A stretch of 35,983 nt of DNA from Candidatus Omnitrophota bacterium. Its GTDB lineage: Bacteria > Omnitrophota > Gorgyraeia > B26-G9. Position 1 is the stretch's first letter, and the number at the start of each line of letters is the position of its first letter. The translations under genes and the position numbers were made by a program. Below the pieces are notes generated by a model. The model searched no databases. It had not been told where the DNA came from and was given only the letters and a program-made list of their open reading frames with translations. Positions 2,891-16,250 of the stretch are shown here, in pieces. The stretch lies in NCBI GenBank assembly GCA_023136735.1, contig JAGLQQ010000056.1:1-35983 (forward strand), read 5' to 3'.

Positions 2891-3179
2891 GTTATATCTT
2901 CAGGCTTGCTATCCTAGCCATTAACCCTCTAACTCCTAAATAGAATTATAGCAGGGAAGCAAGAGGCAGCAATAGCAATCATTTAAAGGCAGAAGTATAA
3001 ACACTTAAAGGGTGAAAAAATCCGTAAATGCAATTCCCCCTATCTGTTTGATGAGCGAAGAAAAAGTGTTTTCTATCTAGGCGTTGGGGTACCCGAATTC
3101 CTCTCGACTTTTTTTTATTTAAGAGGTAAATCGAGACAACGTCCCGGTGAAATTGTACTTACTCCAGCCATAAAGATTG

Positions 3180-3218
3180 GCGGACAGGCATTCTCGGCAG
3201 CCGTTCATGGCTGTCCGC
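3180..3218. other. Stem-loop with alternative pairing (GCGGACAG / CGGCAGCC competing for GGCTGTCCGC)
   Basis: GCGGACAG (3180-3187) and CGGCAGCC (3195-3202) can each pair with GGCTGTCCGC (3209-3218). These pairings were read directly from the sequence. Function unknown. Confidence 0.3.
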
Positions 3219-3227
3219 GAGGTAAGC

Positions 3228-3259
3228 AGTCGATTTTTACACATCCTTGTAAATCGACT
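3228..3259. other. Strong hairpin: 12 bp with a 2-nt bulge and a 6-nt loop
   Basis: AGTCGATTT(TT)ACA catcct TGTAAATCGACT. There is no flanking U-tract on either strand, so it is not a canonical terminator. Confidence 0.35.
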
Positions 3260-3420
3260 AATTAAAATCCGCAAACAAATACAATTTTCTCTATCCCCTA
3301 AAAGGGGTTACTCAAAAGCAGTACTTCACGGAAAAACATGCTCCCGTGTTCCTAATGCTCATTTAACAGTCAGTTTTGCCTTTTTATGAAATGCAGCTTT
3401 GCTTTTTGACGTTTATCTAT

Positions 3421-3464
3421 ATAAAATAAACGGTTCTTTCGTTCAATTTAAATAAGAAAGAACC
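3421..3464 (-). terminator. Intrinsic-terminator-like hairpin (minus-strand orientation), related to the inverted repeats at 28090/28388
   Basis: GGTTCTTTC (3432-3440) pairs with GAAAGAACC (3456-3464) around a 15-nt loop. Read on the minus strand, the stem is followed by GTTTATTTTAT. No minus-strand gene is evident upstream of it, so its role is uncertain. Confidence 0.4.
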
Positions 3465-3611
3465 AAAAAATGTGTATAGTTACATAATTCTTTGATCTTT
3501 TTTTAATTATTCTAACATCTTTGTTTGTAATGAGTTATGTTTGAATGTCGTGCTGGTCAAAAGGCAAGGCTTTTATCTTCTTTTTAAAAGAGCAGATATT
3601 AAGCGATTTGA

Positions 3612-3640
3612 TTGACAAGAAGAGCCTTTTTTGCTATATT
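3612..3640 (+). promoter_or_regulatory. Near-consensus sigma70-type promoter for the glycan operon
   Basis: TTGACA (3612-3617), a 17-nt spacer, then TATATT (3635-3640) preceded by TGc (extended -10-like). It lies about 230 nt upstream of the 3874 start. Confidence 0.5.
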
Positions 3641-3873
3641 ATTTTTAAATCAAAATAATCTAACTATTTATATTTTCAATGTATTGCGTGAAATTTTATA
3701 TTTTTCAATAATGCTTTATTTATATGAAAAATTCGATAAAAAAGAGAGCTATTCTAGTTATATTCGCGGTACTCCCAAGTGCCAATATCTATGGTAGCCC
3801 ATCCTGAATATATTGACCCAGATGTAATCAGAAAAACTAAACAAAATTGTCTAATTTGTAAGGGTTCAAGAAA

Positions 3874-4887
3874 ATGTATAGAGTTATATTTACAGTTTTG
3901 GCTGGTGCTTTCACAGTATGTTTCTGTTTATTGCCTGTTTTGGAGAAGCTGGCTCAAGAAAATGGGCTGCTAACACATCAATATCCTGATAAAATTGACA
4001 AAAGAAGGGTTCCCTATATCGGCGGGATTGGCATGTTTGCAGTCTTTATTCTAGTTTTCATGCTTTCTGTTCGGATTTTTCCTTTGACTATAAGTAAAGG
4101 GCAAGTCTCATTTTACTTATTTTGCTCAGGCCTTATTGTGTTTTTCGGATTTTACGATGACTTAAAGGAGCTTAAGCCGGCAGAAAAACTTATCGGACAA
4201 AGTATTGCAGCTTTTATTTTTGTAATATTTGCAATGCGCACCCAAATTATTTATTTTAATGATTCCTTTAATATTGTCTTAAGCGTATTCTGGATAGTTT
4301 TACTTGCAAATGCTTTTAACCTGCTTGATATCCTTGATGGTTTAGCAGGGGCGATATCAATAATTAATATTTTTACATTTTTTTTGTTTGCAATCCTTAC
4401 TAATAATCATTTTGTTTTAATCTGCTCTGCTTGTTTGCTTGGCGTTCTCTTTGCATTTTTACGCTATAACCTGCCGCCGGCACGTATTTTTATGGGGGAT
4501 GCGGGAAGTCAGTTTTTAGGATTTTCACAGGCAGTTATGGCAATTTCGCTCAGTTTAGCTCCAAGCGGCAAGGAGATAGGATTAATTATACCGCTGGTAA
4601 TTTTAGCTATACCTCTTTTTGACTTCCTTTTTGTTATATTAATGCGAATGAAACAAGGAAAGTCTATTTTTTTAAAAAGCAATGATCATTTTGTATTTAA
4701 AATGCTGGAATTTGGGATAGCACCGCAAACTATAATACGCCTGATGATAATTCTTTCTGTGATTACAAACGCCTGTGCATTTACAGTCTATCTTGTTTCA
4801 AATGCTATTGGATCGATTGTTTTTATATTGGTACTAACTGCTTTAATCGCATTTGGGTTTAAGTTAAGTCGAATGGAAATCAGTTGA
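3874..4887 (+). CDS. Polyprenyl-phosphate sugar-1-phosphate transferase, MraY/WecA/TagO family (Glycos_transf_4), initiating enzyme
   Basis: Multi-TM protein with the family motifs FFGFYDDLKEL, NAFNLLDILDGLAG (NxxNxxDGxDGLA) and FMGDAGSQFLGF. AAGGG lies 9 nt upstream of the ATG. Confidence 0.85.
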   Translation: MYRVIFTVLAGAFTVCFCLLPVLEKLAQENGLLTHQYPDKIDKRRVPYIGGIGMFAVFILVFMLSVRIFPLTISKGQVSFYLFCSGLIVFFGFYDDLKELKPAEKLIGQSIAAFIFVIFAMRTQIIYFNDSFNIVLSVFWIVLLANAFNLLDILDGLAGAISIINIFTFFLFAILTNNHFVLICSACLLGVLFAFLRYNLPPARIFMGDAGSQFLGFSQAVMAISLSLAPSGKEIGLIIPLVILAIPLFDFLFVILMRMKQGKSIFLKSNDHFVFKMLEFGIAPQTIIRLMIILSVITNACAFTVYLVSNAIGSIVFILVLTALIAFGFKLSRMEIS

Positions 4888-6179
4888 TGAACAAAAAAAT
4901 TGTGATATTAGGGGCAGGCCTTTCAGGATTAAGTATCGCTTACCACCTGCAAAATGGATGCTGTGTCTATGAGCAGGAAGGTGAAGTTGGGGGACTTGCT
5001 CGAACTGATGAAATTGACGGGTTTACTTTTGATTATGATGGTCACTTGCTGCATTTTAAAACTGATTATGTGAAAAAGCTTATCAAAAAGCTGCTTCCCG
5101 GATTATTTGTACCTCACAATCGCAATTCTTGGGTTTTTTCGCATAATGTATTCACTAAATATCCTTTTCAGGCAAATACTTATGGTTTGCCGTCTGGGGT
5201 AGTAAAGAAATGTATTTTAGGCATGTTTGATACAGTATCAAAAAAGAAGCCTCCTAAGGAAGTTAATCTGGCGCAATGGATGCAGCATCATTTCGGTGAA
5301 GGGATTACAAAGCATTTTATGTATCCTTATAATCACAAGTTTTGGACACTTGCACCTGAAGAGCTTATTTCTGACTGGACGCAAGGTTTTGTACCGCATG
5401 TTAAATTAAAGACAGTTCTCGATGGGGCGTTTAGCCTGAAAACAAAATCTCTGGGATATAATAGCGAGTTTTGGTATCCGAAAGTGGGCGGAATTGATCA
5501 GATAGCAAAAATTTTGGCTAAAAATATAAATAATATTAAAACTAACTATAAGATGACTGGTCTTGAGTTAGAAAATAAAAAGGTTTTTTTTGAAAATGGA
5601 GAAAGTGCAAAATTCACAGATTTGGTTTTAACTACTCCTCTTAAAGCACTGCAAAAACTTATAAGAGATACTCTTCCTAAAGAGGTAAAGCAGGCTTTTT
5701 TCAGCCTTAAATATGTTTCTATTTTTAATCTTAATCTGGGTGTTCAAAGAGAGAATATAAGTGATAAACATTGGATATATTTTCCCGAGGATAAGTTTTG
5801 TTTCTTCCGGGTAGGCTTTCCGACTAATTTTTCAAAAAATGTCGCGCCTAGGGGGACGAGCTCTCTGTATGTGGAAGTGTCGTATTCAGAGTTTAAGCAA
5901 GTAGATAAAAGAAAAATTGTCTCATTAATTGAAACTGATTTGGTCAAATCAGGCATATTAAATCCTGAGGATGATATTCTGATGAGACATATAAATGACA
6001 TAAAGTATGGCTATGTGATTTATGATAAGCAGTATAAACATAATATAAAGATAATTAATGATTATTTATTGAAGAATAATATTTATAGCGCCGGGAGATT
6101 TGGAAGATGGAAATATATGTCCATGGAGGATGTTATCCTTGATGGCAAACTAATAAGTGATTTGGTAAAGAAAAAATGA
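4887..6179 (+). CDS. FAD/NAD(P)-binding oxidoreductase, UDP-galactopyranose-mutase-like / amine-oxidase superfamily
   Basis: N-terminal Rossmann motif KIVILGAGLSGLSIAY..E.EGEVGG. The C-terminal GRFGRWKYMSMEDVILDG resembles the Glf-type C-terminus. I prefer ATG at 4887 (TGATG overlap) over TTG at 4884. Confidence 0.6.
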   Translation: MNKKIVILGAGLSGLSIAYHLQNGCCVYEQEGEVGGLARTDEIDGFTFDYDGHLLHFKTDYVKKLIKKLLPGLFVPHNRNSWVFSHNVFTKYPFQANTYGLPSGVVKKCILGMFDTVSKKKPPKEVNLAQWMQHHFGEGITKHFMYPYNHKFWTLAPEELISDWTQGFVPHVKLKTVLDGAFSLKTKSLGYNSEFWYPKVGGIDQIAKILAKNINNIKTNYKMTGLELENKKVFFENGESAKFTDLVLTTPLKALQKLIRDTLPKEVKQAFFSLKYVSIFNLNLGVQRENISDKHWIYFPEDKFCFFRVGFPTNFSKNVAPRGTSSLYVEVSYSEFKQVDKRKIVSLIETDLVKSGILNPEDDILMRHINDIKYGYVIYDKQYKHNIKIINDYLLKNNIYSAGRFGRWKYMSMEDVILDGKLISDLVKKK

Positions 6180-6955
6180 AAAATAATTATTTTGTACAAA
6201 TCTATCGTTATAAAGAACTGGTTAGTGCACTGGCTGATAAGGAAGTAAAGATAAAATACAAATCTGCTGTCTTGGGACATCTGTGGGCATTACTTAATCC
6301 ACTGCTTTTGATGCTGGTTTTTTCGTTTGTTTTCAGTGTCATCATGCGGGTTCAGATAAATAATTTTCCGGTTTTTTTGCTCTGTGCTTTATTACCCTGG
6401 TTTTATTTGAGCTTTTCGCTGAACGCTGCGACAACATCGATCGTTGATAACGCGAGTTTGATAAAAAAAGCCTATTTCCCTTATGAAGTTATACCGCTTT
6501 CTATTGTGATAGCTAATCTTTTTAACTTTTTGATATCACTGGTCTTGCTTTTTGCTTTTTTACTCTATTATTCAATTTATCCGAGCTGGTCATGGTTATA
6601 TTTACCAGTGATTGTTGTGCTTCAGAGTGTATTCATCCTAGGGCTTTGTTTATTGAGCTCTGCAATGCATGCGATGTACAGGGATGTGAAATATATAGTG
6701 GAACTGATATTGCTGGTTTGGTTCTACGCGACACCGATATTTTATCCGCTTTCGTTTGTACCTGATAATATTAGGCAATTTTTTCTTTTAAACCCGCTAA
6801 CTGTTTTCGTTAACCTTTATCGGCAGATTCTGCTGCAAGGGACAATGCCGGAACTAGGTTTATTGTTTCTGGCTTTTGTCTTAAGCCTGGCTTTTTATGG
6901 TGTAGGCATGGTAGTTTTTAACTCAAATAAGAAGAGCTTTGCGGATGTAACTTAA
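6176..6955 (+). CDS. wzm: ABC-2 type polysaccharide export permease (Wzm/TagG family)
   Basis: The N-terminus YRYKELVSALADKEVKIKYKSAVLGHLWALLNPLL is typical of Wzm/TagG. About 6 TM segments. ATGA overlap with the upstream gene, directly upstream of the matching ATPase. Confidence 0.85.
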   Translation: MKNNYFVQIYRYKELVSALADKEVKIKYKSAVLGHLWALLNPLLLMLVFSFVFSVIMRVQINNFPVFLLCALLPWFYLSFSLNAATTSIVDNASLIKKAYFPYEVIPLSIVIANLFNFLISLVLLFAFLLYYSIYPSWSWLYLPVIVVLQSVFILGLCLLSSAMHAMYRDVKYIVELILLVWFYATPIFYPLSFVPDNIRQFFLLNPLTVFVNLYRQILLQGTMPELGLLFLAFVLSLAFYGVGMVVFNSNKKSFADVT

Positions 6956-7086: not shown

Positions 7087-10000
7087 ATGTCTGAAATAGT
7101 AGTAAGTTTGAAAAATATAAATAAACAATATTGGTTGAGCTTTGCTAAGCAATCTTTGATAGGCAATTTCCTTTCAATGTTTAGATTTGGTAAAGGCATG
7201 GCGGCTAAAAGACATGTCTGTGCTTTAGAGGGTATAGCACTAAATATAAAAAGAGGAGAGGCCGTTGGAATTATCGGGGAGAATGCCTCTGGTAAGACAA
7301 CGATACTGCGCATAATTAGCAGGATAACTGTACCGACTACGGGGGAATTGGAAGTAAACGGCAAGGTAGCGGGCCTTCTTGATTTAGGGGCTGGCTTTCA
7401 TTCTGAATTGACAGGAAGAGAGAATATTTATCTGGATGCAGCTTTGTATGGCATGAGCCGAAAAGAAATAGATGGGGCTTATGAAAAAATAGTTGAATTT
7501 TCCGGATTAGGGGATTTTATAAACGCGCAGGTTAAGACATATTCTCAAGGTATGCTTGTTCGACTAGGCTTTGCTATAGCCATACACGTTGATCCTGATA
7601 TATTCCTTATTGATGACAGCTTAGCTGTCGGAGATGAAGAATTTCAGCGTAAATGTCTTAAGAAGGTTTTTGAATTAAAAGAACAAGGGAAAACTATTAT
7701 TGTTGTATCCCATGACCTCGATTCCATAAGCAGGATTTGCGAAAGAGGGATTTTGCTTAAATCAGGCAGGATTGTTAAAGATGATTCTATTCATAAAGTA
7801 ATTATGCGTTATATAGAGGCAGTGGGAGATAAAAATTCTATTGCTTCAATTGACAAAGGAAGAATCAGTGTTATTTTTAACAGCGGTAAAATCATTCTTT
7901 TATGGGACGGCAAGCCAATAACAAAGAATTTTGGAGGATATGCTAGCTTACAGTTTCTTGATAAATGGATAATGTCTTGGCAGGGGAAATGGCAGGTTGT
8001 GGAAAATACAGATTATTCCTTGAAAGTTCAAGGACTATTCGATAAATATGGAGTAAAATTGGAACTGGCTTGTTTTCTTCAGGGCGAAAGGCTGATGAAT
8101 TTTAATCTTAAGCTGGAGGTTCCCACACAAACGAGTCTGAAAAAAGCTGGTTTTGGGTTTATGGTAAGTGAAGAATATAACCGCTATTTAAATGGACAAA
8201 ACATTGAACCCATACAAGCTATTGATAAGTCGGCAAAAGAATGGACGGATATTTACCGCACTGACGAATATAATGCGCCGATTATGCTTATCAGCCGGGA
8301 TAGTATGCCTGTATTGAATATAAGGTTTGCTAGCCATGAATGGGCTGGATTCAGTCTAATTCAAAATACGGCAGAAGAATTGAATGCGCGTATTATGCAG
8401 ACTCAAATAAGCCCGCCTCAAGCATTTGCTTTATCAGGTGAAGAGAGTTCTATTGTAGAAAGCAGCTGTAGGCTTGAGCTTATGAGTGAAGAGGATTTTA
8501 AGGGCCTTATACACAAAAGAATAGAAGAAAGCACGATAGCATCCGGCAGGCTTAAAGTGCAATTAAAAGACAACGGTATCCAAATTTTCTTTGATGAAAC
8601 TGAGCTGACAAAGAGTAATGGATTGAGTCTTGGTTTTTATCATAAAAGCAGGTTTTTTGATCTGTTTGCAGGTCTTTGGAGTTTGACTAAAAATGCTTCA
8701 GAAACACTTAGTATATGCTCCAGTTTTCAGGAAATGGGGTTAAAGGCTGAATGTTTGTTGCAATTGGCTGAGGATAGCCTAAGGTGGAATATAGATATTA
8801 AAAGTGAGAAATCAATTGAAGATCACAGGCTTATCACAGGTCTTTATTTAAGCGAAAAATACAGAAAATATTTTACCGGAGTTCACGACTATGAGTTTCC
8901 TGCTTCAGGAGAGCATGTTGAAAAGATTGATTTATTAGCAGGAGAAACGGACTTTATAGGTTTAATGGCAGGAAACGATGAATTGCCTTCACTGGTCTTC
9001 GAATCTCTGCAGCCAGGCATGTTAGAGCTGCAAAACTCAGGGATTGATTCCCCGGGACGCATTTTAATGCAGGAGGTAGTTGACAGGAGTACAAACGGAC
9101 GGATCGTATTCCTTGAGACCCCGGAGCAAAAGAGTGGATTTTTAATCGATAAAAAGAAAAAACATGCTAAGAGTACGGGTTTAAGCAATGATCAGCTTAG
9201 GCTTGAGTTTAATGAAAATAATATTAATATTTACAGTGGAGAAAGTAAAATAACTGGAGGAGAGGGTTTTAGCAGCGGGGTTTACTTTAATGGTCGGTGG
9301 TATGAATCAACTCAGCTTAAAAAACAGATACGCAAAGAAGGAGATACTCTTAAGGTCTTGATTGAAAGACGCTTGCCGCGTTTAAGTGAATTGTGGGAGA
9401 TATCATTGAAAGCTAAGAAAATTCAGTGGATAACGAAAATTCAATCTGAGGAAAAATTGAGCGATGTGCATTATAAGGCCGGCATTGTTTTAAATTCAGA
9501 GTATGGACAATGGGCTCATTCTTTTAGTGAAGGGCAGTTTGATGAACAAACAAGAAATAGCCGGGTTGTTGATTTAGATGACGTGAACAATGCCTTGCTT
9601 GGTGCCAGATCTGAGGATTGTTCCCTGCCTGCAGTATTCTTTAAGAGAATTAACAGTATTACTTCAGGGGTTATTATTCAGAAAGAAGAAGATAAGTGCT
9701 GTTTGCACTTCAAATTAAAAAATGCGGCAGTGATAAACGGTAAGGGCAGGGAAAAACTGTTTTCTGGGACGATAAGTTTGCAGGATGAAAGATGCTGGAG
9801 GAATGATCTGTCAAATCACCGCAAAGAGGAGTTTTCTCTGCAGACAAGTGATGGGCTTCAATTGTTTGCTGCGAATAAGCAGATAAAACTGCAAGCTCAA
9901 GGCATAGAGCTTACACAGGCAAAGGGATTGGCAGTCGCGCTGCTGTGTGAAGATGAAGATATAGATACTAATTTTGCATTATGGACATTGAAGAAGAACA

Positions 10001-11148
10001 GCCCAAGTAAACTAGAGGTCCAAATGGATTGGGCTAACTCAGTCTTGAGACAAAGGTGGCAATTTGAGCTTATTGATGATGCGATACAATGGACAGTATC
10101 GTTTGATGTTAAGAAGCCTATTTTGTATAAAGAATTATTAGTAAATGTGTTTCCTCAAAAGCAATTTAACAGATGGCAAACTATAGCTGATGCTGGTCAA
10201 ATCGATTGTGAAGGATCAGCTGGCAAAGCAGTAACTATTTTCGATAATAGAAGTGAAATTCTTAAGGTGTTTCAGGAGGGGATTTCTCGGGAAAGCCCAG
10301 GTTTGGCGCTTAACCTGCTTGTGGATATGAAGAAATGGTTTTTACATATCTATAATCACGAACGAGGTGATGGAATCGCTTGCGGGGCGCACTACCTGTC
10401 GGATCCTCAAGGAGAGTGCCTTGATCAGGGCACAATTGAAATTTTTAAGGCAAAGATATCATTAGTGAGTGATAGTGGCAGCGAGCAAATTGCAGCCCCT
10501 GGCAATCATGTGGATGCTTATGATCTAGAACTCGTTAAATTGAAGGTCAAAATTGAAAAAGCAAAAATGAGATTATTCTGGGCTGATAAGGAATTGACTA
10601 AAAAACTTGGAATGTTTACCTCTTTTTCCATTAATGGAAACCTGATAGATTCAACCCTGGCTAAATGGGATGTGCAGGCGGCCGTCGATAATAAAATAAA
10701 AGTCCGATTGAACTGGAGCAGTTATTTTGTCTCTCAATTATGGGAGATCAAGCTGATAAGTGAACATGAACTTTGCTGGGATGTTCGTACTGAAATTAAT
10801 CAGGCGGGTATAGATAGACATACAGCAGCTTTAATGCTCTCAGATAATTATGAGAGCTATAAGTCAGATGATAATCAGGGAGGCTGTTTTCCTGATAGGT
10901 TTAAGCTGGATGTTTGGATGAATATGTCAAAGACTAAAGATAGCATAGAAGTTAATTCAAAGCAAAGCAGCTTTCCGGCTTTAATTTTTGATGCCGCTTT
11001 TGAAAAACATGAATTTAGTAATATGTTAGAGAATTCTGATGCTCTTCATTCATCTAGAGTTTTAAGATGCGAAATGCAGAGCCCTGAGCTGGCGGGTAAG
11101 GCAGGATTAGCTTCTAGCATAAAAATAAATATATCAATACAGGAGTAG
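7087..11148 (+). CDS. wzt: Polysaccharide ABC exporter ATP-binding protein (Wzt/TagH family) with a ~1100-aa C-terminal extension of five tandem repeat modules
   Basis: NBD within aa 1-250: Walker A GENASGKTT, signature YSQGMLVRL, Walker B IFLIDDSLAVGD, H-loop VVSHD. Residues ~255-1353 are non-NBD and internally repetitive. Confidence 0.9.
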   Translation: MSEIVVSLKNINKQYWLSFAKQSLIGNFLSMFRFGKGMAAKRHVCALEGIALNIKRGEAVGIIGENASGKTTILRIISRITVPTTGELEVNGKVAGLLDLGAGFHSELTGRENIYLDAALYGMSRKEIDGAYEKIVEFSGLGDFINAQVKTYSQGMLVRLGFAIAIHVDPDIFLIDDSLAVGDEEFQRKCLKKVFELKEQGKTIIVVSHDLDSISRICERGILLKSGRIVKDDSIHKVIMRYIEAVGDKNSIASIDKGRISVIFNSGKIILLWDGKPITKNFGGYASLQFLDKWIMSWQGKWQVVENTDYSLKVQGLFDKYGVKLELACFLQGERLMNFNLKLEVPTQTSLKKAGFGFMVSEEYNRYLNGQNIEPIQAIDKSAKEWTDIYRTDEYNAPIMLISRDSMPVLNIRFASHEWAGFSLIQNTAEELNARIMQTQISPPQAFALSGEESSIVESSCRLELMSEEDFKGLIHKRIEESTIASGRLKVQLKDNGIQIFFDETELTKSNGLSLGFYHKSRFFDLFAGLWSLTKNASETLSICSSFQEMGLKAECLLQLAEDSLRWNIDIKSEKSIEDHRLITGLYLSEKYRKYFTGVHDYEFPASGEHVEKIDLLAGETDFIGLMAGNDELPSLVFESLQPGMLELQNSGIDSPGRILMQEVVDRSTNGRIVFLETPEQKSGFLIDKKKKHAKSTGLSNDQLRLEFNENNINIYSGESKITGGEGFSSGVYFNGRWYESTQLKKQIRKEGDTLKVLIERRLPRLSELWEISLKAKKIQWITKIQSEEKLSDVHYKAGIVLNSEYGQWAHSFSEGQFDEQTRNSRVVDLDDVNNALLGARSEDCSLPAVFFKRINSITSGVIIQKEEDKCCLHFKLKNAAVINGKGREKLFSGTISLQDERCWRNDLSNHRKEEFSLQTSDGLQLFAANKQIKLQAQGIELTQAKGLAVALLCEDEDIDTNFALWTLKKNSPSKLEVQMDWANSVLRQRWQFELIDDAIQWTVSFDVKKPILYKELLVNVFPQKQFNRWQTIADAGQIDCEGSAGKAVTIFDNRSEILKVFQEGISRESPGLALNLLVDMKKWFLHIYNHERGDGIACGAHYLSDPQGECLDQGTIEIFKAKISLVSDSGSEQIAAPGNHVDAYDLELVKLKVKIEKAKMRLFWADKELTKKLGMFTSFSINGNLIDSTLAKWDVQAAVDNKIKVRLNWSSYFVSQLWEIKLISEHELCWDVRTEINQAGIDRHTAALMLSDNYESYKSDDNQGGCFPDRFKLDVWMNMSKTKDSIEVNSKQSSFPALIFDAAFEKHEFSNMLENSDALHSSRVLRCEMQSPELAGKAGLASSIKINISIQE
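7849..11145 (+). other. Five tandem protein-level copies of an unrecognised ~215-230-aa module (approximate starts at aa 255, 485, 701, 921, 1146 of Wzt)
   Basis: Recurrent anchors: GRISVIFNSGKIILLWDGKPITK; GRLKVQLKDNGIQIFFDETELTKSNGL; LRLEFNENNINIYSGESKITGGEGF..GRWYEST; LQLFAANKQIKLQAQGIELTQAKGL; KLKVKIEKAKMRLFWADKELTKKLGM. Distal anchors: YKAGIVLNSEYGQW, LELQNSGIDSPGRILMQ, SLIQNTAEELNARIMQ, MLENSDALHSSRVLR. Boundaries are approximate. Confidence 0.7.
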
Positions 11149-11151
11149 GCT

Positions 11152-12141
11152 TTGATTGAGAATATCCCGGATAATCTTAAAAAAATTAAAATTTGCGATT
11201 TAAGTGCGGCTGCAAACTGTAATTTTAAATGTAAAATGTGTTTTTTTTGGCGCCCTCAAAAAAATGATGGGCAGACTATGAGTATCTCTGATTGGAAAAA
11301 GCTAATTTTGCAATTGGAGGAGTTTTTTGGTCCTGATCTGCTTATTAATATATCAGGTCCGGGAGAGGTGCTTCTTTTAAAGGGGATCGAAGAACTGCTC
11401 TTAGCTGCCGGTCGTAAATTCAGGGTTTCCATTAATTCTAACGGTTATGTAATCGATGATACTGCAGCAAAGATAATCACTGACAATATAGAGTCGATCA
11501 GCATATCGTTGGATGGTGTTTCAGCGCGAACGCATGATTATATACGCGGAATGCCAGGCTCTTATTCTGCAGCGGTTTTAGCTATCGAGAGACTGCGCAA
11601 AAAATCTAAAACGCTTATTATTACGGTAAGTACGGTTATTCTTGATTACAATTTAGATGAAGTTATTGATCTGGTTAACTGGATTGAAAGAAGTGAAGTT
11701 AATGGCATTATCTTTCAAGCTGTTTCTTTACCTAATAATATCGCTTATGATCCTATGTGGTTTAAAAATGAATTCAAATGTCTTTGGCCTCAAGATACAG
11801 AAAAAGTGAGGACCGTAATGGATAAGCTAATAGAATATAAAAGTCAGGGCAGTAAGATCGTTAATCCTGTTAAACAGCTTGAATGTTTCAAAGAGTACTT
11901 TTTAAATCCGCAACTGCATATTAAAAAATTAAGGTGTGAGGTTGATAATGTCTTAAAAATAGGCAGTTGCGGAGACATTAAGATCTGCGACTTTTCTCAG
12001 CCTATAGGAAATGTAAAAATAAGTCCGTTAAAGGAAATACTGGCTTCTGAGCTTGCTCAGGAGGAAAGACTAAAGGCTTATGAATGTAAAAGCCCCTGTC
12101 ATCTTTTGGTGAACTGTTTTCACGATAATGGAGGCGAATAA
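11152..12141 (+). CDS. Radical SAM enzyme with SPASM/twitch-like C-terminal Cys motifs (tandem paralog 1 of 5)
   Basis: TTG start 6 nt after AGGAG. CX3CX2C in AANCNFKCKMC. Other motifs: ISGPGE, NSNGY, SISLDG..HD..RG. Auxiliary motifs: C-X11-G-X4-C (CEVDNVLKIGSCGDIKIC) and CX3CX5C (CKSPCHLLVNC). Confidence 0.85.
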   Translation: MIENIPDNLKKIKICDLSAAANCNFKCKMCFFWRPQKNDGQTMSISDWKKLILQLEEFFGPDLLINISGPGEVLLLKGIEELLLAAGRKFRVSINSNGYVIDDTAAKIITDNIESISISLDGVSARTHDYIRGMPGSYSAAVLAIERLRKKSKTLIITVSTVILDYNLDEVIDLVNWIERSEVNGIIFQAVSLPNNIAYDPMWFKNEFKCLWPQDTEKVRTVMDKLIEYKSQGSKIVNPVKQLECFKEYFLNPQLHIKKLRCEVDNVLKIGSCGDIKICDFSQPIGNVKISPLKEILASELAQEERLKAYECKSPCHLLVNCFHDNGGE

Positions 12142-13158
12142 GTGGAATATACTGAAGAACAAAAAATAAATGCAGATAAAAGTATTTGCCCGGTGCCTAC
12201 TTTTTCCTGCTTTACACTCTGCGATGATTGTATTTTGCGTTGTCGAATGTGCGAAAAATGGAAGCCGGATATACATATTAAACCGGAGAGGAAGCAATTA
12301 GGCCAAGAAGACTGGAAAAGATGCGCAGTTTCATTGAAAAAAATTGCCCCGGAGAATTTTGTTATAAATTTCGGAGGAGGAGAAGTAACAACTGTACCTT
12401 GGCTTTTTGAAATTGTATCTTTTTGCCATGATTTAGGGTTTAAGACAAATATAGCCACTAACGGTTATTTGATGGATGAGGAGAAGGCAAAAAAGATGTC
12501 GGAATCAGGCCTTGATTATGTAAATATTTCTTTAGACAGCATTGATGAGACTTTGCATGATGAACTGCGCGGGGTAAAAGGCACATACGCTAAAGTGATA
12601 AATGCGATAGATCTTATTAATAAATATGCACCTAATACGCAGATAAGCCTTTGCTCGATTATGATGGCTGATACAATAGACGGGATGGTAGAGTTGGTAA
12701 ATTGGGCACAGGATAATGAGAAAGTAGCCATGATATACCTGATGGCCATTATGCAGCCGAATAATACTATGACCGGACTACAATGGTACAAAAATGAGTT
12801 CAGCCATTTATGGCCAAAAGATTATTGTAAAGTTAAAAATACAATTGATGAACTTATTGAGCTAAAGAAAAAGGGTTTCAAGATATCAAATCCCGTAGAA
12901 CACCTTCAGGCTTACAAAACTTATTTTTCTGACCCTCAGACGTATGTTAAAAAGTCAAATTGCAACATAGACCATGCTTTACACATTAGTTCCGTAGGGG
13001 ATGTTTTTATGTGTTACAGTTTTGATAAAATAGGCGATGCAAGAGAAGACTGTGTTGAAAATCTCTGGAAATCTGATAAAGCCGAGGATATCCGTAAACA
13101 GATTAGAGCTTGTAAAGAAAACTGTCATTTTCTTTTGAATTGTAACTTCAAGGATTGA
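12142..13158 (+). CDS. Radical SAM enzyme with SPASM/twitch-like motifs (tandem paralog 2 of 5)
   Basis: GTG start 7 nt after GGAGG, abutting the upstream stop. Motifs: CILRCRMC, NFGGGE, ATNGY, ISLDS..HD..RG, CNIDHALHISSVGDVFMC, CKENCHFLLNC. Confidence 0.85.
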   Translation: MEYTEEQKINADKSICPVPTFSCFTLCDDCILRCRMCEKWKPDIHIKPERKQLGQEDWKRCAVSLKKIAPENFVINFGGGEVTTVPWLFEIVSFCHDLGFKTNIATNGYLMDEEKAKKMSESGLDYVNISLDSIDETLHDELRGVKGTYAKVINAIDLINKYAPNTQISLCSIMMADTIDGMVELVNWAQDNEKVAMIYLMAIMQPNNTMTGLQWYKNEFSHLWPKDYCKVKNTIDELIELKKKGFKISNPVEHLQAYKTYFSDPQTYVKKSNCNIDHALHISSVGDVFMCYSFDKIGDAREDCVENLWKSDKAEDIRKQIRACKENCHFLLNCNFKD

Positions 13159-13162
13159 ATTT

Positions 13163-14200
13163 ATGCGGTATGAATTAGAAAAAAACATTGAGTCGGTGCC
13201 AACGTATTGTTGTATCGCGATATTAGAAAGCTGTTTTATGCATTGTAAAATGTGCTATAAATGGCAGGAAGATGTGCTTATTCGCAAGCCGGATGAGCCG
13301 ACATTAGAGGAGTGGAAGCAGGCGATATCAGATCTTGCGCAATTGTGTAAGGAGCAAAAGCCGCAAATTAATTTTGCCGGAGGAGAGCCGCTTGCTAGAG
13401 AAGAAATTTTTGAGCTTATAGCTTATGCGCAGAACCTGGGGTTTCCGGCGCTCTTAGCAAGTAATGCTTATTTAGTTGATGAGGTAAAAGCTCAAAAAAT
13501 TGCCCAAGCACAGCTTAAGGGTATTTCCATTTCTTTAGATGGCGTAACACCTCAAACTCATGATTTGATGAGAGGAGTTTTCGGTGCACATGAAAAGGTG
13601 CTGCAGTCCATAGATTTGATTAGGCGTTATTCTCCGGGCACTAAAATCACTTTGAATTGCTGTATTTGCGCTTTGAATATACACGAACTTCCGGATCTTG
13701 TTCAGTGGGCGAATAATGATGGTCGCATTGATGGCATATTTTTCCAGGCAGTGACACAACCTTTTAGTACTCCTGAGGAAGAATATTGGTACAAAAATGA
13801 TAAATATTCCGATCTTTGGCCTCTTGATACATTAAAAACGAATGAGATACTAGAGAAAATGTATTTACTAAAGTCAAAAGGTGATTTTAAGGCTCCTTTT
13901 CAGATTTTAAATCCAGCAAGTCAATTTAGAGCCTTTAAGCACTATTTCAGTGATCCTGAGAAGTTTATCAAAAAGGGACGCTGTCATCTTGATAATAGTG
14001 CAATTAATATAACTCCTGCAGGAGAAGTCCATCTTTGTTTTTCTATGCCGGCTATAGGCAATATAAAACATCAAAGTATCCAGACAATGTGGCATTCAAA
14101 ACATGCGGAAGAAGTTAGAAGTCAGATAAAGCAATGCAAAAAAAACTGCCAGGCATTGGTTAATTGTAATTTCGATGATAAACAAGACTATATTGACTAA
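13163..14200 (+). CDS. Radical SAM enzyme with SPASM/twitch-like motifs (tandem paralog 3 of 5)
   Basis: Motifs: CFMHCKMC, NFAGGEP, ASNAY, ISLDG..HD..RG, CHLDNSAINITPAGEVHLC, CKKNCQALVNC. Confidence 0.85.
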   Translation: MRYELEKNIESVPTYCCIAILESCFMHCKMCYKWQEDVLIRKPDEPTLEEWKQAISDLAQLCKEQKPQINFAGGEPLAREEIFELIAYAQNLGFPALLASNAYLVDEVKAQKIAQAQLKGISISLDGVTPQTHDLMRGVFGAHEKVLQSIDLIRRYSPGTKITLNCCICALNIHELPDLVQWANNDGRIDGIFFQAVTQPFSTPEEEYWYKNDKYSDLWPLDTLKTNEILEKMYLLKSKGDFKAPFQILNPASQFRAFKHYFSDPEKFIKKGRCHLDNSAINITPAGEVHLCFSMPAIGNIKHQSIQTMWHSKHAEEVRSQIKQCKKNCQALVNCNFDDKQDYID

Positions 14201-14217
14201 AAAAGGAAAACTAGCTA

Positions 14218-15228
14218 ATGATAAAACCTAGGTTTGGATGTTTAGGTATTACGGATAATTGTATGTTACGCTGTAAAATGTGTCAAAAATGGAAGCCGGA
14301 TATTTTTATAAGCGAGAAAGATGTCAATAAGTTCCCTACAGTCGCACAATATCGGAAGTTTCTTTATGAACTTCGGGAGCTGGTTGACGATGATTTTGTC
14401 GTTAATTTCGGCGGCGGCGAAGCGTTATTGTACCCGGATATATTTGAAGTTATTAAAATTGCCTCAGAATGCGGATTACGCACAAATATCAACTCGAATG
14501 GGTTTTTAATCGATGAAAAGGTAGCCCGCAAATTAGGCGAGGCGGGGATGCAGAATATAAAAATATCTTTAGATAGTGTAGATCCAAAAATCCATGATTA
14601 TATGCGGGGAGTAGAAGGTGTTCACGCGCGGGTGATTCAAGCTATTAATAATTTGCATGAATTTGCTCCCGCAATGAATGTGTCATTAATAAGCGTGATC
14701 TATGAGCAAACTTACAGAGGTTTTATTCCTCTAATAGAATGGATAAACAATAATGAAAAGATCGAGCATGTTTTGATAATGGTTGCCATGCAGCCGAATA
14801 ATACTGAACCTGAAGAACATTGGTGGAGCTCTAAACACGGGTTTCTTTGGCCAAAGGACAAAGCGGCTGTTTCTGTTCTTATGGATAAGCTGATAGACTT
14901 AAAAGCTCAGGGGTATAAAATCAATAATGAAATAGTTCAATTAAAAGCGGCTAAGGAATACTTAAAGCAGCCGGATAAGTTTGTTAAAAGTACTATTTGT
15001 AATATGTATAAGGCGGTGCATGTAAGTGCTATAGGCCAGATATTCATTTGCTTTAACTACGGATTTCTCGGAGATATTCGTAAAGGCGATGATATAAGAA
15101 AAATATGGCAATCTCAGGAAGCAGAAGCTGTCCGGAGGGAAATAAAGAATTGCAAAAAAAACTGTCATTTTTTAATAAATTGTTATTTTGAAGAAGATGA
15201 ATTAACTGAGGAGTTGCAAAACCAATGA
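14218..15228 (+). CDS. Radical SAM enzyme with SPASM/twitch-like motifs (tandem paralog 4 of 5)
   Basis: Motifs: CMLRCKMC, NFGGGE, NSNGF, ISLDS..HD..RG, CNMYKAVHVSAIGQIFIC, CKKNCHFLINC. It shares a 19-nt identical run with paralog 2 (AAAAATGGAAGCCGGATAT at 14285-14303 and 12254-12272). Confidence 0.85.
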   Translation: MIKPRFGCLGITDNCMLRCKMCQKWKPDIFISEKDVNKFPTVAQYRKFLYELRELVDDDFVVNFGGGEALLYPDIFEVIKIASECGLRTNINSNGFLIDEKVARKLGEAGMQNIKISLDSVDPKIHDYMRGVEGVHARVIQAINNLHEFAPAMNVSLISVIYEQTYRGFIPLIEWINNNEKIEHVLIMVAMQPNNTEPEEHWWSSKHGFLWPKDKAAVSVLMDKLIDLKAQGYKINNEIVQLKAAKEYLKQPDKFVKSTICNMYKAVHVSAIGQIFICFNYGFLGDIRKGDDIRKIWQSQEAEAVRREIKNCKKNCHFLINCYFEEDELTEELQNQ

Positions 15229-16250
15229 ATGAAAAAGAAAAAACTACTCAGTTGAAACCGCTTAGTTACTGTGATCTAGGAGTAGGTTATAAATGCAACT
15301 ATAAGTGCTTAATGTGCAAGTTATGGCAAAATAGCCCGCTTTGTGCAGATAATGTCCTGTCTATCGAGCAGTGGAAAAACGTACTGACTCAAATAGTTGA
15401 TCTACCCAAGAAAGACGGGTGCATGATTAATTTCGCAGGTTCAGGAGAAGCTCTTTTGAGAGGGGGAATATTTGAGCTCATAAAACACGGCAGAGAAATG
15501 GGTTTAAAAATACATGTGATCACTAACGGTTTTGCTGTAAACAAAGATGTAGCGCTAAAAATGGATCAATCAGGGCTAGAATCTCTATCGTTTTCGTTAG
15601 ATAGTCTTAATTCACAAACGCACGATTACTTAAGAGGAGCCCCAGGGGCTAAAGATAGAGTACTTAAGGCAATAGAACTTATAGCTTTGCATTCTCCAAA
15701 TACAAAGATGGGTATTAATACTGTTATCAGCGGAGTAAATATCAAAGAGGTTATGGAACTTACCAAATGGGTAGAAGATCATGATAAGCTTGCTTATATA
15801 AACTTTCAGGCAATTACTCAACCCTTTTCTTTTACCGATTCCTCAAAAGAAGATTGGTTTGAAGATGAGAAAAATAAATTTCTCTGGCCGGAGGATAAAA
15901 AGGCTGTAAATCAGACAATTGATGAGTTAATAGAATTGAAACAGAAGCATAACAAGATAGCTGATAGTGCAGAGCAGCTTAATATCTTTCGTGAATATTT
16001 TCTTAATCCCCTGTTGTTTATTAAAAATGGCCGCTGTAATTTGGGTAAGGGAGATATTTTAATAATAGATCCTGCCGGGCATGTATCAATGTGCTCGATA
16101 GTTGGGATAATTGATAATGTAAAAAATGCAAAGCCAATCAGGGACATTATGATGAGTCCAGGGGCTCAAGAGCATAAAGAAAAAATAAATGAATGTAGAC
16201 TGAATTGTCATCTGGTTGTCAGTTGTTATTACCATGAGGAATCTTCGTAG
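15225..16250 (+). CDS. Radical SAM enzyme with SPASM/twitch-like motifs (tandem paralog 5 of 5)
   Basis: ATGA overlap with paralog 4. Motifs: CNYKCLMC, NFAGSGE, ITNGF, FSLDS..HD..RG, CNLGKGDILIIDPAGHVSMC, CRLNCHLVVSC. Confidence 0.85.
   Translation: MNEKEKTTQLKPLSYCDLGVGYKCNYKCLMCKLWQNSPLCADNVLSIEQWKNVLTQIVDLPKKDGCMINFAGSGEALLRGGIFELIKHGREMGLKIHVITNGFAVNKDVALKMDQSGLESLSFSLDSLNSQTHDYLRGAPGAKDRVLKAIELIALHSPNTKMGINTVISGVNIKEVMELTKWVEDHDKLAYINFQAITQPFSFTDSSKEDWFEDEKNKFLWPEDKKAVNQTIDELIELKQKHNKIADSAEQLNIFREYFLNPLLFIKNGRCNLGKGDILIIDPAGHVSMCSIVGIIDNVKNAKPIRDIMMSPGAQEHKEKINECRLNCHLVVSCYYHEESS

What the first reader, a model, noticed from the sequence alone, without database searches (positions are those of the whole stretch)
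7849..11145. The Wzt ATPase has an exceptionally long five-module C-terminal extension
**Seen in the sequence.** A standard ~250-aa NBD with Wzt/TagH-type motifs is followed by ~1100 aa made of five tandem, diverged module copies.

**Established knowledge.** Characterised Wzt proteins either lack a C-terminal domain or have a single carbohydrate-binding domain of roughly 150-200 aa.

**Inference.** Five diverged copies may read different modification states of the polymer, acting as a checkpoint for completion of the multi-step radical tailoring. Alternatively they may dock the module-bearing enzymes.
Basis: partly seen in the sequence, partly recalled or inferred. Interest (0 to 1): 0.65.

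Follow-up and report, generated by a model that had tools for sequence, protein, structure and literature searches.

The report
Five-module sugar-binding tail on Wzt
A glycan-export ATPase from an uncultured Omnitrophota bacterium carries five diverged copies of an uncatalogued beta-sandwich domain where known exporters have one cargo-recognition domain; the same domain sits on radical-SAM enzymes, glycosyltransferases and a sulfatase in related bacteria, so it is probably a new glycan-recognition module linking tailoring to export.

Summary
ORF 7087-11148 (1353 aa) is a Wzt/TagH-type ABC ATPase (aa 1-249) followed by five tandem ~215-aa modules that are 15-19% identical to each other. A profile built only from the copies on two neighbouring radical-SAM proteins finds all five (i-E 1e-18 to 1e-33).

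The module matches no Pfam, NCBIfam or PDB sequence family and is not the known Wzt carbohydrate-binding domain. AlphaFold (pLDDT 87) with Foldseek places it in the galactose-mutarotase-like beta-supersandwich fold.

The protein is not unique. The module defines 646 protein clusters, and every taxon-labelled member is Omnitrophota. Wzt relatives carry 2 to about 9 modules, most often 3. Their polarity is fixed: type 1 next to the ATPase, types 4-5 at the C-terminus, and a middle that expands.

Radical-SAM genes follow directly in 23 of 24 related loci. Module number does not track radical-SAM number, and many loci have no module-bearing enzyme. The module is also fused to GT1 and GT-C glycosyltransferases and to a signal-anchored sulfatase.

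Best reading: a new CBM-like cargo-recognition array that replaces the canonical CBD. The "one copy per modification state" checkpoint is possible but unproven, and general docking to module-bearing enzymes is not supported.

The parts
6176..6955 (+). Wzm-type ABC-2 permease, partner of the ATPase
   Evidence: PF01061 at E 3e-15. Best NCBIfam matches are galactan Wzm/RfbD and KpsM. It lies directly upstream of Wzt in most related loci.
7087..11148 (+). Whole Wzt gene (1353 aa plus stop)
   Evidence: The identical product is found on 9 metagenome contigs. Full-length orthologues share 33-67% identity.
7087..7833 (+). Nucleotide-binding domain, aa 1-249 (Wzt/TagH type)
   Evidence: PF00005. TagH, Wzt and RfbE are the best NCBIfam matches, all below their equivalog cut-offs. 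A. aeolicus Wzt is the best PDB match at E 5e-65, and the alignment ends at aa 243-247.
7834..8502 (+). Module 1 (aa 250-472), the NBD-proximal 'type 1'
   Evidence: HMM hit at i-E 3.7e-18. Envelope. Type 1 is the first module in nearly all NBD-fused relatives. It lacks the family-wide Trp at profile column 78.
8521..9138 (+). Module 2 (aa 479-684), middle type
   Evidence: i-E 1.4e-25. It lacks conserved W45, S48 and W78 but keeps N176 and R184.
9166..9807 (+). Module 3 (aa 694-907), middle type; this type is duplicated in longer relatives
   Evidence: i-E 1.9e-26. It has Lys at profile column 53 in place of Trp. Type-3 runs are seen in P0029, and modules 2 and 3 of P0004 are 97.6% identical.
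9826..10491 (+). Module 4 (aa 914-1135), the penultimate 'type 4'
   Evidence: i-E 2.8e-18. It has lost W45 and the N-x-D...R motif but has its own conserved W-F-L-H-I-Y stretch. It precedes type 5 in most 3- to 5-module relatives.
10510..11145 (+). Module 5 (aa 1142-1353), the C-terminal 'type 5' canonical module
   Evidence: i-E 3.3e-33. The AF2 model has pLDDT 87.3 and pTM 0.86. Foldseek assigns the supersandwich fold. It keeps all family-conserved residues and the E-N-S-D...R motif.
11152..16250 (+). Five tandem small radical SAM/SPASM genes (329-345 aa each) directly downstream
   Evidence: PF04055 with or without PF13186. Runs of 4-6 such genes are conserved in all five-module loci.
16314..18251 (+). 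Three copies of the same module at the N-terminus of the 1179-aa rSAM/SPASM protein (ORF 16272-19811)
   Evidence: Three hits on this ORF (aa 15-216, 239-430, 458-660). These copies were among the five the profile was built from, so the independent evidence is BLASTP between this protein and the Wzt tail, E 1e-43. The rSAM/SPASM domains lie at aa 833-1136.
23678..24307 (+). Module copy between the B12-rSAM and rSAM/SPASM domains of the 1394-aa protein (ORF 22142-26326)
   Evidence: This copy was one of the five the profile was built from. Independent evidence is BLASTP to Wzt module 5, E 5e-20. Domain layout.
25682..26317 (+). Second module copy, at the C-terminus of the 1394-aa protein
   Evidence: This copy was one of the five the profile was built from. 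Independent evidence is BLASTP to Wzt module 5, E 1.5e-15.
3874..6179 (+). GT4 (WecA/MraY-like polyprenyl-phosphate sugar-1-P transferase) and a PF01593 flavoprotein, the conserved upstream partners
   Evidence: PF00953 at E 7e-35 and PF01593 at E 4e-19. The order GT4-AmOx-Wzm-Wzt recurs in related loci.

Best explanation
The gene encodes the ATPase of a Wzm/Wzt-type (type V ABC) exporter for a lipid-linked glycan. Its canonical single carbohydrate-binding domain has been replaced by an array of five beta-supersandwich modules from a previously uncatalogued, apparently Omnitrophota-restricted family.

The module most likely works as a carbohydrate-binding module. It recognises the lineage's radical-SAM-tailored glycan, and it is appended to whichever protein must hold that glycan: radical-SAM and B12-radical-SAM enzymes, GT1 and GT-C transferases, a sulfatase, and the exporter.

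On Wzt, the soluble cytoplasmic array hangs from the end of the NBD, so a dimeric transporter would carry ten modules. It would capture the finished or maturing lipid-linked glycan and raise its local concentration at the channel entrance. That couples tailoring to export, as the single CBD does for capped O-antigens.

The C-terminal type 4-5 pair, and especially the fully canonical module 5, is the likeliest primary binding head. Module 1 is the NBD-proximal adaptor. Modules 2 and 3 are an expandable middle that adds binding sites, reach, or both.

**Shown:** the repeat anatomy, the fold class, the family distribution and architectures, positional orthology, the genomic association with radical-SAM arrays, and the absence of TM segments.

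**Inferred:** ligand binding, which modules bind, and the gating of export.
For: - **Position.** The array starts exactly where sequence similarity to the full-length, CBD-bearing A. aeolicus Wzt chains stops, at about aa 247. [quoted passage not shown]
- **Fold.** The AF2 model of module 5 has pLDDT 87.3 and pTM 0.86. Its best PDB matches have E about 1e-6 and TM 0.6-0.69. They are galactose-mutarotase-like supersandwich domains: the N-domains of the FpGalNase galactosaminidase, GH94, GH65, GH63 and GH15; the heparinase III C-domain; aldose 1-epimerases; and YidC P1.
- **Distribution typical of a CBM.** The module is fused to the Wzt NBD, rSAM/SPASM, B12-rSAM, GT1 (P0133), GT-C/PMT_2 (at least 9 clusters) and a signal-anchored PF00884 sulfatase (P0146).
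- **Conserved residues.** The family-wide conserved positions are dominated by Trp/Tyr/Phe plus Thr, Ser, Gln, Asn, Asp and Arg. They are complete in terminal and enzyme-linked modules.
- **Genomic link.** Radical-SAM genes directly follow the Wzt in 23 of 24 loci, and NBD-Mn-rSAM fusions exist.
- **Localisation.** The tail has no TM segment, so it is cytoplasmic like the NBD.
- **Differentiation.** The five copies are separately conserved: 28-34% identity at the same position against 14-20% across positions.
Against: - No binding has been measured, and the glycan is unknown.
- The fold class is not exclusively sugar-binding. YidC P1 and PBCV-1 minor capsid proteins are among the top matches.
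- I could not map the conserved residues onto the model surface. Many conserved Trp residues may be core rather than an exposed binding platform.
- Several Wzt modules (2, 3 and especially 4) have lost parts of the conserved motif set, so not all five need bind anything.
- The topology of the GT-C fusions was not determined.
- In some loci few polymerising glycosyltransferases lie within 10 kb, so the cargo may not be a long polymer.
Confidence: 0.55

Rival explanations
1. Protein scaffold. The modules are protein-protein interaction units. They dock the soluble radical-SAM enzymes, and each other, onto the transporter. This builds a membrane-associated tailoring-export metabolon without binding the glycan themselves.
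For: - Radical-SAM genes are almost always adjacent.
- The module is shared by Wzt and some rSAM enzymes in one operon.
- Rosetta-stone fusions NBD-M5-rSAM and NBD-M2-rSAM exist.
- In this window five modules are followed by five small rSAM genes that have no module of their own.
- YidC P1, a top structural match, is known as a protein-contact domain (the role of P1 is from general knowledge).
Against: - There is no 1:1 relation between modules and rSAM genes. L007 and L011 have 4 small rSAMs with 5 modules. L017 and L020 have 8 to 9 or more rSAMs with 3 modules. L012 and L014 have 1 rSAM with 3 or 2 modules.
- Homotypic docking is excluded as a general role, because most 3-module loci have no second module-bearing protein.
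- Modules on a signal-anchored sulfatase, and on the C-termini of GT-C enzymes, would not meet cytoplasmic rSAM proteins.
Confidence: 0.2
2. Stalk or ruler. Only the C-terminal head (types 4-5) binds a terminal feature of the glycan. Module 1 is a base, and the middle modules are a length-setting stalk. A glycan would then be exported only once it is long enough for its end to reach the head. This would be an export-side chain-length gauge, analogous in logic to the WbdD coiled-coil ruler.
For: - The ends are conserved and the middle is variable: 1-4-5, 1-(2/3)-4-5, 1-2-3-4-5, and 1-2-3-3-3-3-5.
- One relative shows a recent internal duplication of middle modules, 97.6% identical.
- Short helical linkers of 14-16 residues join modules 1 to 4.
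- The canonical motif is complete in the terminal module across the family.
Against: - Middle modules are as well conserved between orthologues as module 4: 28-31% against 28%. Module 2 keeps N176 and R184 at 100%. Both are more than a spacer needs.
- Inter-module geometry is not confidently predicted (pTM 0.48), so rigidity is unknown.
- Some loci show few polymerising GTs, so cargo length is unclear.
Confidence: 0.15
3. Catalytic modules. Some copies are enzymes that act on the cargo before export, for example mutarotase- or epimerase-like, as in the aldose-1-epimerase branch of the fold.
For: Aldose 1-epimerases are among the structural matches. The terminal modules have an invariant polar cluster (E, N, S, D, H, R).
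Against: - No sequence match to any epimerase family, even at E <= 10.
- Identity to all structural matches is 4-12%.
- The polar motif is degenerate in several copies.
- The tandem, appended distribution is typical of binding modules.
Confidence: 0.05

Closest known systems
Wzt C-terminal carbohydrate-binding domain (E. coli O9a, Raoultella terrigena, Aquifex aeolicus; Pfam Wzt_C PF14524)
   Same: Both are a soluble cytoplasmic extension fused directly after the hinge region of a Wzt NBD in a Wzm/Wzt exporter. The presumed role, recognising the finished lipid-linked glycan so that only certified cargo is exported, is the same (PMC9445017).
   Different: The known CBD is a single jelly-roll domain that forms a strand-swapped dimer; its size, about 150 aa, is from general knowledge. 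Here there are five modules of about 215 aa with a supersandwich fold. They give no PF14524 hit and no sequence match to the CBD part of 7k2t/8dku. The same module is also found on tailoring enzymes, which is not known for the Wzt CBD.
Galactose-mutarotase-like beta-supersandwich domains (N-domains of GH65, GH94, GH63, GH15 and FpGalNase; heparinase II/III C-domain; aldose 1-epimerase; YidC P1)
   Same: The predicted fold matches: Foldseek E about 1e-6 to 1e-4, TM 0.55-0.69 over about 250 aligned columns. Most of these domains sit in carbohydrate-active proteins.
   Different: Identity is only 4-12%. No Pfam or NCBIfam model of that clan is matched. None of the known domains is described as a tandem array on an ABC ATPase or as an appendage of radical-SAM enzymes.
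TagH of Bacillus subtilis (teichoic-acid exporter ATPase with a long C-terminal extension; NCBIfam PRK13545, 549 positions)
   Same: The NBD is of the same subfamily and gives the best NCBIfam score, 190 bits over model positions 36-249. Both are exporter ATPases with a non-catalytic C-terminal extension.
   Different: Only the NBD part of the model is matched. The score is far below the cut-off of 538, and the extension is unrelated.
WbdD coiled-coil molecular ruler of the E. coli O9a pathway
   Same: It offers a possible analogy: a length-variable cytoplasmic protein element that relates glycan length or termination to export (PMC3482155, listed).
   Different: WbdD is a separate kinase/methyltransferase with a coiled coil, not part of the transporter. 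No ruler function has been shown here.
RiPP recognition elements on radical SAM/SPASM peptide maturases (an analogy from general knowledge)
   Same: A non-catalytic substrate-recognition domain is shared by several tailoring enzymes of one pathway, and recognition is also used at the export step.
   Different: The RRE is a small winged-helix domain that binds a leader peptide. Here the module is an all-beta domain of about 215 aa in a glycan locus that also encodes GT4, GT1, GT2, GT-C, a carbamoyltransferase and SGNH proteins.

Membership tests
Wzt/TagH-type ABC exporter ATPase (type V ABC, polysaccharide/polyol-phosphate export) | ABC nucleotide-binding domain with closest similarity to Wzt/TagH | tested here: met
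   PF00005 at E 7.5e-16. Best NCBIfam matches are TagH (190 and 173 bits) and galactan Wzt/RfbE (154 bits), all below their equivalog cut-offs. Best PDB matches are A. aeolicus Wzt (E 5e-65), TagH and TarH.
Wzt/TagH-type ABC exporter ATPase (type V ABC, polysaccharide/polyol-phosphate export) | Adjacent ABC-2 (Wzm/TagG-type) permease gene | tested here: met
   ORF 6176-6955 matches PF01061, with Wzm/RfbD and KpsM as best NCBIfam matches. The pairing is conserved in most related loci.
Wzt/TagH-type ABC exporter ATPase (type V ABC, polysaccharide/polyol-phosphate export) | Exports a polyprenyl-linked glycan | not testable with these tools
   Only context is available: a WecA/MraY-like GT4 initiating transferase two genes upstream, and GT1, GT2, GT-C and carbamoyltransferase genes in the cluster.
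Wzt C-terminal carbohydrate-binding domain (PF14524, jelly-roll CBD) | Sequence match to the Wzt_C family or to solved CBDs | tested here: not met
   No Pfam hit on the tail at E <= 0.01, and none on any single module at E <= 10. Alignment to the CBD-containing chains 7k2t and 8dku ends at residue 247. A module profile against PDB finds nothing relevant.
Wzt C-terminal carbohydrate-binding domain (PF14524, jelly-roll CBD) | Single jelly-roll domain forming a strand-swapped dimer | tested here: not met
   The module is about 215 aa with a supersandwich fold, and five copies are present. No Wzt CBD appears among the 50 best Foldseek matches. Dimerisation could not be tested.
Wzt C-terminal carbohydrate-binding domain (PF14524, jelly-roll CBD) | Binds the terminal cap of the glycan and is needed for export | not testable with these tools
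   This needs binding and transport assays.
Galactose-mutarotase-like beta-supersandwich fold | Structural similarity of a confident model to members of the fold | tested here: met
   The model has pLDDT 87.3 and pTM 0.86. 66 PDB matches have E <= 1e-3. The top ones are 9ayu, 3bs6, 8bou, 3k25, 7fe3, 5jmd and 1lur, with TM 0.55-0.69.
Galactose-mutarotase-like beta-supersandwich fold | Sequence membership in a described family of the clan | tested here: not met
   No Pfam or NCBIfam match for any of the 10 module copies.
Carbohydrate-binding module (CAZy sense) | Non-catalytic domain appended to carbohydrate-active enzymes | tested here: met
   Fusions are found to GT1, GT-C (PMT_2), sulfatase, rSAM and B12-rSAM enzymes of glycan loci, and to the Wzt NBD.
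Carbohydrate-binding module (CAZy sense) | Demonstrated carbohydrate binding | not testable with these tools
   No ligand is known, and the organism is uncultured.

The most novel reading that the evidence does not exclude
The array is a graded reading head for a radical-SAM-tailored glycan. The individually conserved module types recognise different chemical features or stages. The expandable middle sets the reach or valency. Export is licensed only when the full pattern or length is present. The same module family targets every enzyme of the pathway, on both sides of the membrane, to that glycan. This would be a phylum-specific 'address domain' for a surface polymer of unknown chemistry.
Probability: 0.2. 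Interest if true: 0.85.

Novelty: new variant of a known kind. Interest (0 to 1): 0.6.

Why it matters
**Export control.** Cargo selection by Wzm/Wzt exporters is understood only for a single jelly-roll CBD that reads a chain-terminating cap. This is a second, unrelated solution. It uses a tandem array of a new supersandwich module, with a fixed base and head and an expandable middle.

**A marker for unknown glycan chemistry.** The array is tied almost without exception to arrays of radical-SAM enzymes. It therefore marks an undescribed class of radical-SAM-tailored, lipid-linked glycans in Omnitrophota, a phylum of mostly uncultured bacteria.

**A probable new CBM family.** The module family comprises 646 clusters at 50% identity and is absent from Pfam and NCBIfam. 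It is probably a new CBM family and a handle for finding every protein that touches this glycan.

**Possible length or valency effects.** If the array length matters, it would give a new way to study how exporters measure their cargo.

Tried and rejected
- **Word-indexed search with the 10-module alignment.** It returned nothing. This was a limit of the method, not absence: the exhaustive HMM search then found 646 clusters.
- **Module profile against PDB sequences.** Only a chance lipocalin-like match at E 0.27.
- **Pfam and NCBIfam on single modules at lenient thresholds.** Only noise.
- **Genome scan with a 23-sequence diverse alignment.** The narrower alignment found only 3 loci, all Omnitrophota, so taxonomic breadth rests on source names.
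- **A hidden, diverged module in the 642-aa B12-rSAM next to the 3-module Wzt of L012.** hhalign probability was 0.4%, so this was rejected.
- **One Wzt module per small radical-SAM gene.** Rejected by counts in L007, L011, L016, L017, L020, L012 and L014.
- **Assembly or gene-fusion artefact.** Rejected by 9 independent contigs and by same-length orthologues.
- **Membrane-spanning or extracytoplasmic tail on this Wzt.** Rejected: no hydrophobic segment in aa 250-1353.
- **Full-tail AF2 model.** It gave well-folded modules but pTM 0.48, so no conclusion on overall shape. I did not run a fold search on it.
- **Crude hydropathy count of TM helices in the GT-C fusions.** Too ambiguous to fix the side of the membrane.
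- **Rfam.** No RNA family in the window.
- **Literature.** Searches for Wzt with radical SAM, Omnitrophota with radical SAM, and radical SAM with ABC-transporter-dependent polysaccharide found no description of this system.

Full report
**1. The observation**

ORF 7087-11148 on the + strand encodes 1353 aa. Residues 1-249 are an ABC nucleotide-binding domain (NBD). It matches PF00005 at E 7.5e-16. The best NCBIfam matches are TagH (190 and 173 bits) and galactan Wzt/RfbE (154 bits), all below their equivalog cut-offs. The best solved relatives are Aquifex aeolicus Wzt (E 5e-65), TagH and TarH.

When the whole protein is searched, the alignment to the full-length A. aeolicus chains that include the CBD (7k2t, 8dku; 404 aa) ends at query residue 247. 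A Wzm-type ABC-2 permease gene lies directly upstream.

The remaining roughly 1100 aa match no Pfam family. BLASTP among the three long proteins of the window showed a shared repeat. A profile built only from the five copies on the two radical-SAM proteins finds exactly five copies in the Wzt, with i-E 3.7e-18 to 3.3e-33. It finds nothing else in the six-frame translation of the window.

The copies span aa 250-472, 479-684, 694-907, 914-1135 and 1142-1353. They are 15-19% identical to each other. The finding's coordinates and description are therefore correct.

The gene is not an artefact. The identical protein is found on 9 contigs from several metagenome samples. Orthologues at 33-67% identity are 1351-1403 aa long.

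**2. What the module is**

None of the ten copies in the window matches Pfam at E <= 10 or NCBIfam at E <= 1. A module profile finds no PDB sequence.

AlphaFold2 on module 5, using the 10-copy alignment, gives an all-beta model with pLDDT 87.3 and pTM 0.86. Foldseek against the PDB returns 66 matches at E <= 1e-3. Nearly all of the 50 listed are galactose-mutarotase-like beta-supersandwich domains:
- the N-domain of the Flavonifractor plautii galactosaminidase (9ayu, E 1.4e-6, TM 0.69);
- the YidC periplasmic P1 domain (3bs6);
- the N-domains of GH94, GH65, GH63 and GH15 enzymes;
- the heparinase III C-domain;
- aldose 1-epimerases.

PBCV-1 minor capsid proteins are also among the top matches. 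None of the 50 listed matches is a Wzt CBD. Known CBDs are single jelly-roll domains that form strand-swapped dimers and read the glycan's terminal cap (PMC9445017). The tail therefore occupies the place of the CBD but is a different, uncatalogued domain.

The full tail, modelled with nine orthologues, folds into five beta modules (mean pLDDT 79.5). Helices of 14-16 residues lie between modules 1/2, 2/3 and 3/4, and a disordered linker lies between modules 4 and 5. The pTM is only 0.48, so the mutual arrangement is not predicted. There is no hydrophobic segment in aa 250-1353, so the array is soluble and, being fused to the NBD, cytoplasmic.

**3. The family**

An exhaustive profile search of 1.84 billion representative proteins finds 646 clusters at E <= 1e-3, of which 278 are at <= 1e-30. 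I classified the best 150 with the module profile and with phmmer queries for the window's other domains. The list is ranked by total score and so is biased towards multi-module proteins.
- 89 begin with a Wzt-type NBD. They carry 2 (19), 3 (43), 4 (14), 5 (12) or 6 or more (1) modules.
- Re-scoring with a looser domain threshold shows relatives of 1825 and 2244 aa with about 7 and about 9 modules.
- One fusion has the layout NBD-M5-rSAM/SPASM (P0002, RKY36779.1).

The window's protein is therefore a member of a recurrent architecture, not an outlier. It is long only against characterised Wzt/TagH proteins, whose PDB chains are 234-404 aa.

Every member with a taxon label is from Candidatus Omnitrophota. 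These labels come from protein names and from the contig titles of L009-L011. Sources call them only 'ABC transporter ATP-binding protein', 'ABC-type polysaccharide/polyol phosphate transport system ATPase subunit' or 'hypothetical protein'. Some unlabelled loci have 57% GC (L012, L014), so restriction to one phylum is likely but not proven.

**4. Internal logic of the array**

Among 17 five-module proteins, modules at the same position are 28-34% identical between proteins. Modules at different positions are 14-20% identical. The five copies are old and individually maintained.

Position-specific HMMs applied to the rest of the family show a fixed polarity:
- Type 1 follows the NBD and type 5 ends the protein, usually preceded by type 4.
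- Three-module proteins are mostly 1-4-5.
- Four-module proteins are 1-(2/3)-4-5.
- Longer proteins repeat middle types, for example 1-2-3-3-3-3-5.
- In one orthologue (P0004), modules 2 and 3 are 97.6% identical, which is a recent internal duplication.

The family-wide conserved residues are T30, G34, W45, S48, W53, W78, W90, Y115, W118, F127, P157 and R184, plus a [QE]-N-[ST]-D motif before R184. All are present in terminal modules (in the terminal modules of 2- to 4-module proteins N 94%, D 77%, R 96%; in the module 5 of five-module orthologues N 94%, D 100%, R 100%) and largely in enzyme-linked modules. The other positions deviate as follows:
- Module 2 lacks W45, S48 and W78.
- Module 3 has Lys at column 53.
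- Module 1 lacks W78.
- Module 4 has lost W45 and the N/D/R motif, but has its own conserved W-F-L-H-I-Y stretch.

**5. Genomic context**

The window is a one-strand cluster. In order it holds:
- a WecA/MraY-like GT4;
- a PF01593 flavoprotein;
- Wzm;
- Wzt;
- five small rSAM/SPASM genes;
- a three-module rSAM/SPASM protein;
- two SGNH proteins;
- a B12-rSAM/module/rSAM-SPASM/module fusion;
- another B12-rSAM;
- GT1;
- GT2;
- a carbamoyltransferase;
- a GT-C (PMT_2) protein;
- one more rSAM/SPASM.

All five other five-module loci (L007-L011) keep the core order: (GT4)-AmOx-Wzm-Wzt followed by small rSAM genes. Four also show a module-bearing rSAM within the sequence held, and L010 ends inside the small-rSAM run.

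For shorter Wzts I obtained 3 loci by protein look-up and 16 by a metagenome scan. Of the 24 related loci that continue past the Wzt stop codon, 23 have a radical-SAM gene directly downstream. Some of these loci are near-duplicates. Examples are 6 rSAM genes in L016, 8 in L017 and 9 or more in L020. The exception, L022, has a signal-peptide-bearing 678-aa protein there before the contig ends.

Most three-module loci, and L012 and L014, have no second module-bearing protein. Module number does not follow rSAM number.

**6. Other hosts of the module**

Proteins without an NBD or rSAM domain include several further architectures:
- at least nine clusters of GT-C (PMT_2) membrane glycosyltransferases with 2-4 C-terminal modules;
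- a GT1-module-rSAM/SPASM fusion, P0133;
- a PF00884 sulfatase with an N-terminal hydrophobic signal or anchor and two C-terminal modules, P0146;
- small TM-anchored module proteins.

In characterised GT-C enzymes such as ArnT and PglB the C-terminal soluble domain is periplasmic, and signal-bearing sulfatases are extracytoplasmic. Both statements are general knowledge. My crude TM count could not settle the topology here. If it holds, the module works on both sides of the membrane.

**7. Interpretation**

Four things fit a carbohydrate-binding module that recognises the lineage's radical-SAM-tailored glycan:
- the place of the array, exactly where the CBD sits;
- a fold that mostly occurs in carbohydrate-active proteins;
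- conserved aromatic and polar residues;
- above all, attachment to many unrelated catalytic classes of glycan pathways.

On Wzt, arrayed, such a module would replace the CBD as the cargo-recognition device (confidence 0.55).

The scaffold rival, in which modules dock radical-SAM enzymes, keeps some weight (0.2) because rSAM genes are always adjacent and fusions exist. It is weakened by the lack of stoichiometric relation, by loci without partner modules, and by the sulfatase and GT-C fusions.

The fixed ends and expandable middle suggest a stalk or ruler variant (0.15). A catalytic role is unlikely (0.05).

- Differentiated copies tied to radical-SAM tailoring is consistent with positional orthology, but 'one copy per modification state' is untested and is not reflected in gene counts.
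- Docking of module-bearing enzymes is not a general explanation.

**8. Novelty and score**

A Wzt with a C-terminal cargo-recognition extension is a known kind. Four things are new and undescribed in the searched literature and databases:
- a tandem array of a new supersandwich module;
- its conserved polarity;
- its phylum-level distribution;
- its near-obligate linkage to radical-SAM arrays.

I rate it a new variant of a known kind, interest 0.6. It is solid and surprising for specialists in glycan export and radical-SAM enzymology. The function is still inferred and the organisms are uncultured.

Noticed in passing
window 11152-16250: Five tandem paralogous small radical SAM/SPASM genes (329-345 aa) lie directly after Wzt. 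The window as a whole holds 10 radical-SAM domains in 9 genes and 10 module copies in 3 genes. Orthologous loci have 4-6 small copies, so the 5:5 match with the Wzt modules is probably coincidental.
   Followed up: partly
window 22142-26326: A single 1394-aa ORF fuses a B12-binding radical-SAM domain, a module, a second radical SAM/SPASM domain and a second module. The best NCBIfam match of the B12-rSAM part is HpnJ (267 bits, below the cut-off of 578). An orthologous protein of the same layout exists (P0024, 1403 aa).
   Followed up: partly
window 2890-3874 (site at 3612-3640): A gene-free, low-GC gap of about 1 kb lies upstream of the GT4 gene. It holds a near-consensus sigma-70-like site (TTGACA, 17 nt, TATATT with a TG extension; 11 of 12 matches). 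This could be the promoter of the whole one-strand cluster. The total number of promoter-like sites in the scanned region is not above the shuffled expectation.
   Followed up: no
window 4884-6179: A PF01593 (amine-oxidase / CrtI-type) flavoprotein is conserved between the WecA-like GT4 and Wzm in most related loci. Its role is unknown. It might act on the polyprenyl carrier or on an amino sugar.
   Followed up: no
whole window: Every ORF of 200 aa or more is on the + strand, and GC skew is positive in every 1-kb window (0.01 to 0.33).
   Followed up: no
window 12-2198 and 2135-2890: A 728-aa ORF with an acidic N-terminal stretch and no Pfam match is probably truncated by the window start (the gene at the corresponding position in L001 is 1006 aa). 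It is followed by a pilin-like protein with an N-terminal methylation motif.
   Followed up: no
related proteins P0015, P0081, P0089, P0107, P0109, P0126, P0128, P0132, P0138, P0146, P0133: The module is also fused to GT-C (PMT_2) glycosyltransferases (2-4 C-terminal copies), to a signal-anchored PF00884 sulfatase, and to a GT1-rSAM/SPASM fusion. The window's own GT-C (33180-34886) has no module.
   Followed up: partly
L014 1961-8837: Upstream of a two-module Wzt in a 57% GC contig lie sulfate-activation genes (ATP sulfurylase, APS kinase) and two PF01663 phosphodiesterase-family genes. This hints that some cargos of this exporter family are sulfated, and it fits with the module-bearing sulfatase P0146.
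   Followed up: no
related protein P0004 (1370 aa): Modules 2 and 3 of this five-module orthologue are 97.6% identical. This is a recent tandem duplication or conversion inside the array.
   Followed up: no
L016, L017, L019, L020, L021, L026 (first gene after Wzt): In three-module loci the first radical-SAM gene after Wzt is about 640 aa, roughly 300 aa longer than the small rSAM/SPASM proteins. The extra region is not detected by the module profile and was not examined further.
   Followed up: no
window 34795-34886: The listed start of the last rSAM/SPASM ORF (34795) overlaps the end of the GT-C ORF by 92 nt. The real start is probably a downstream ATG.
   Followed up: no
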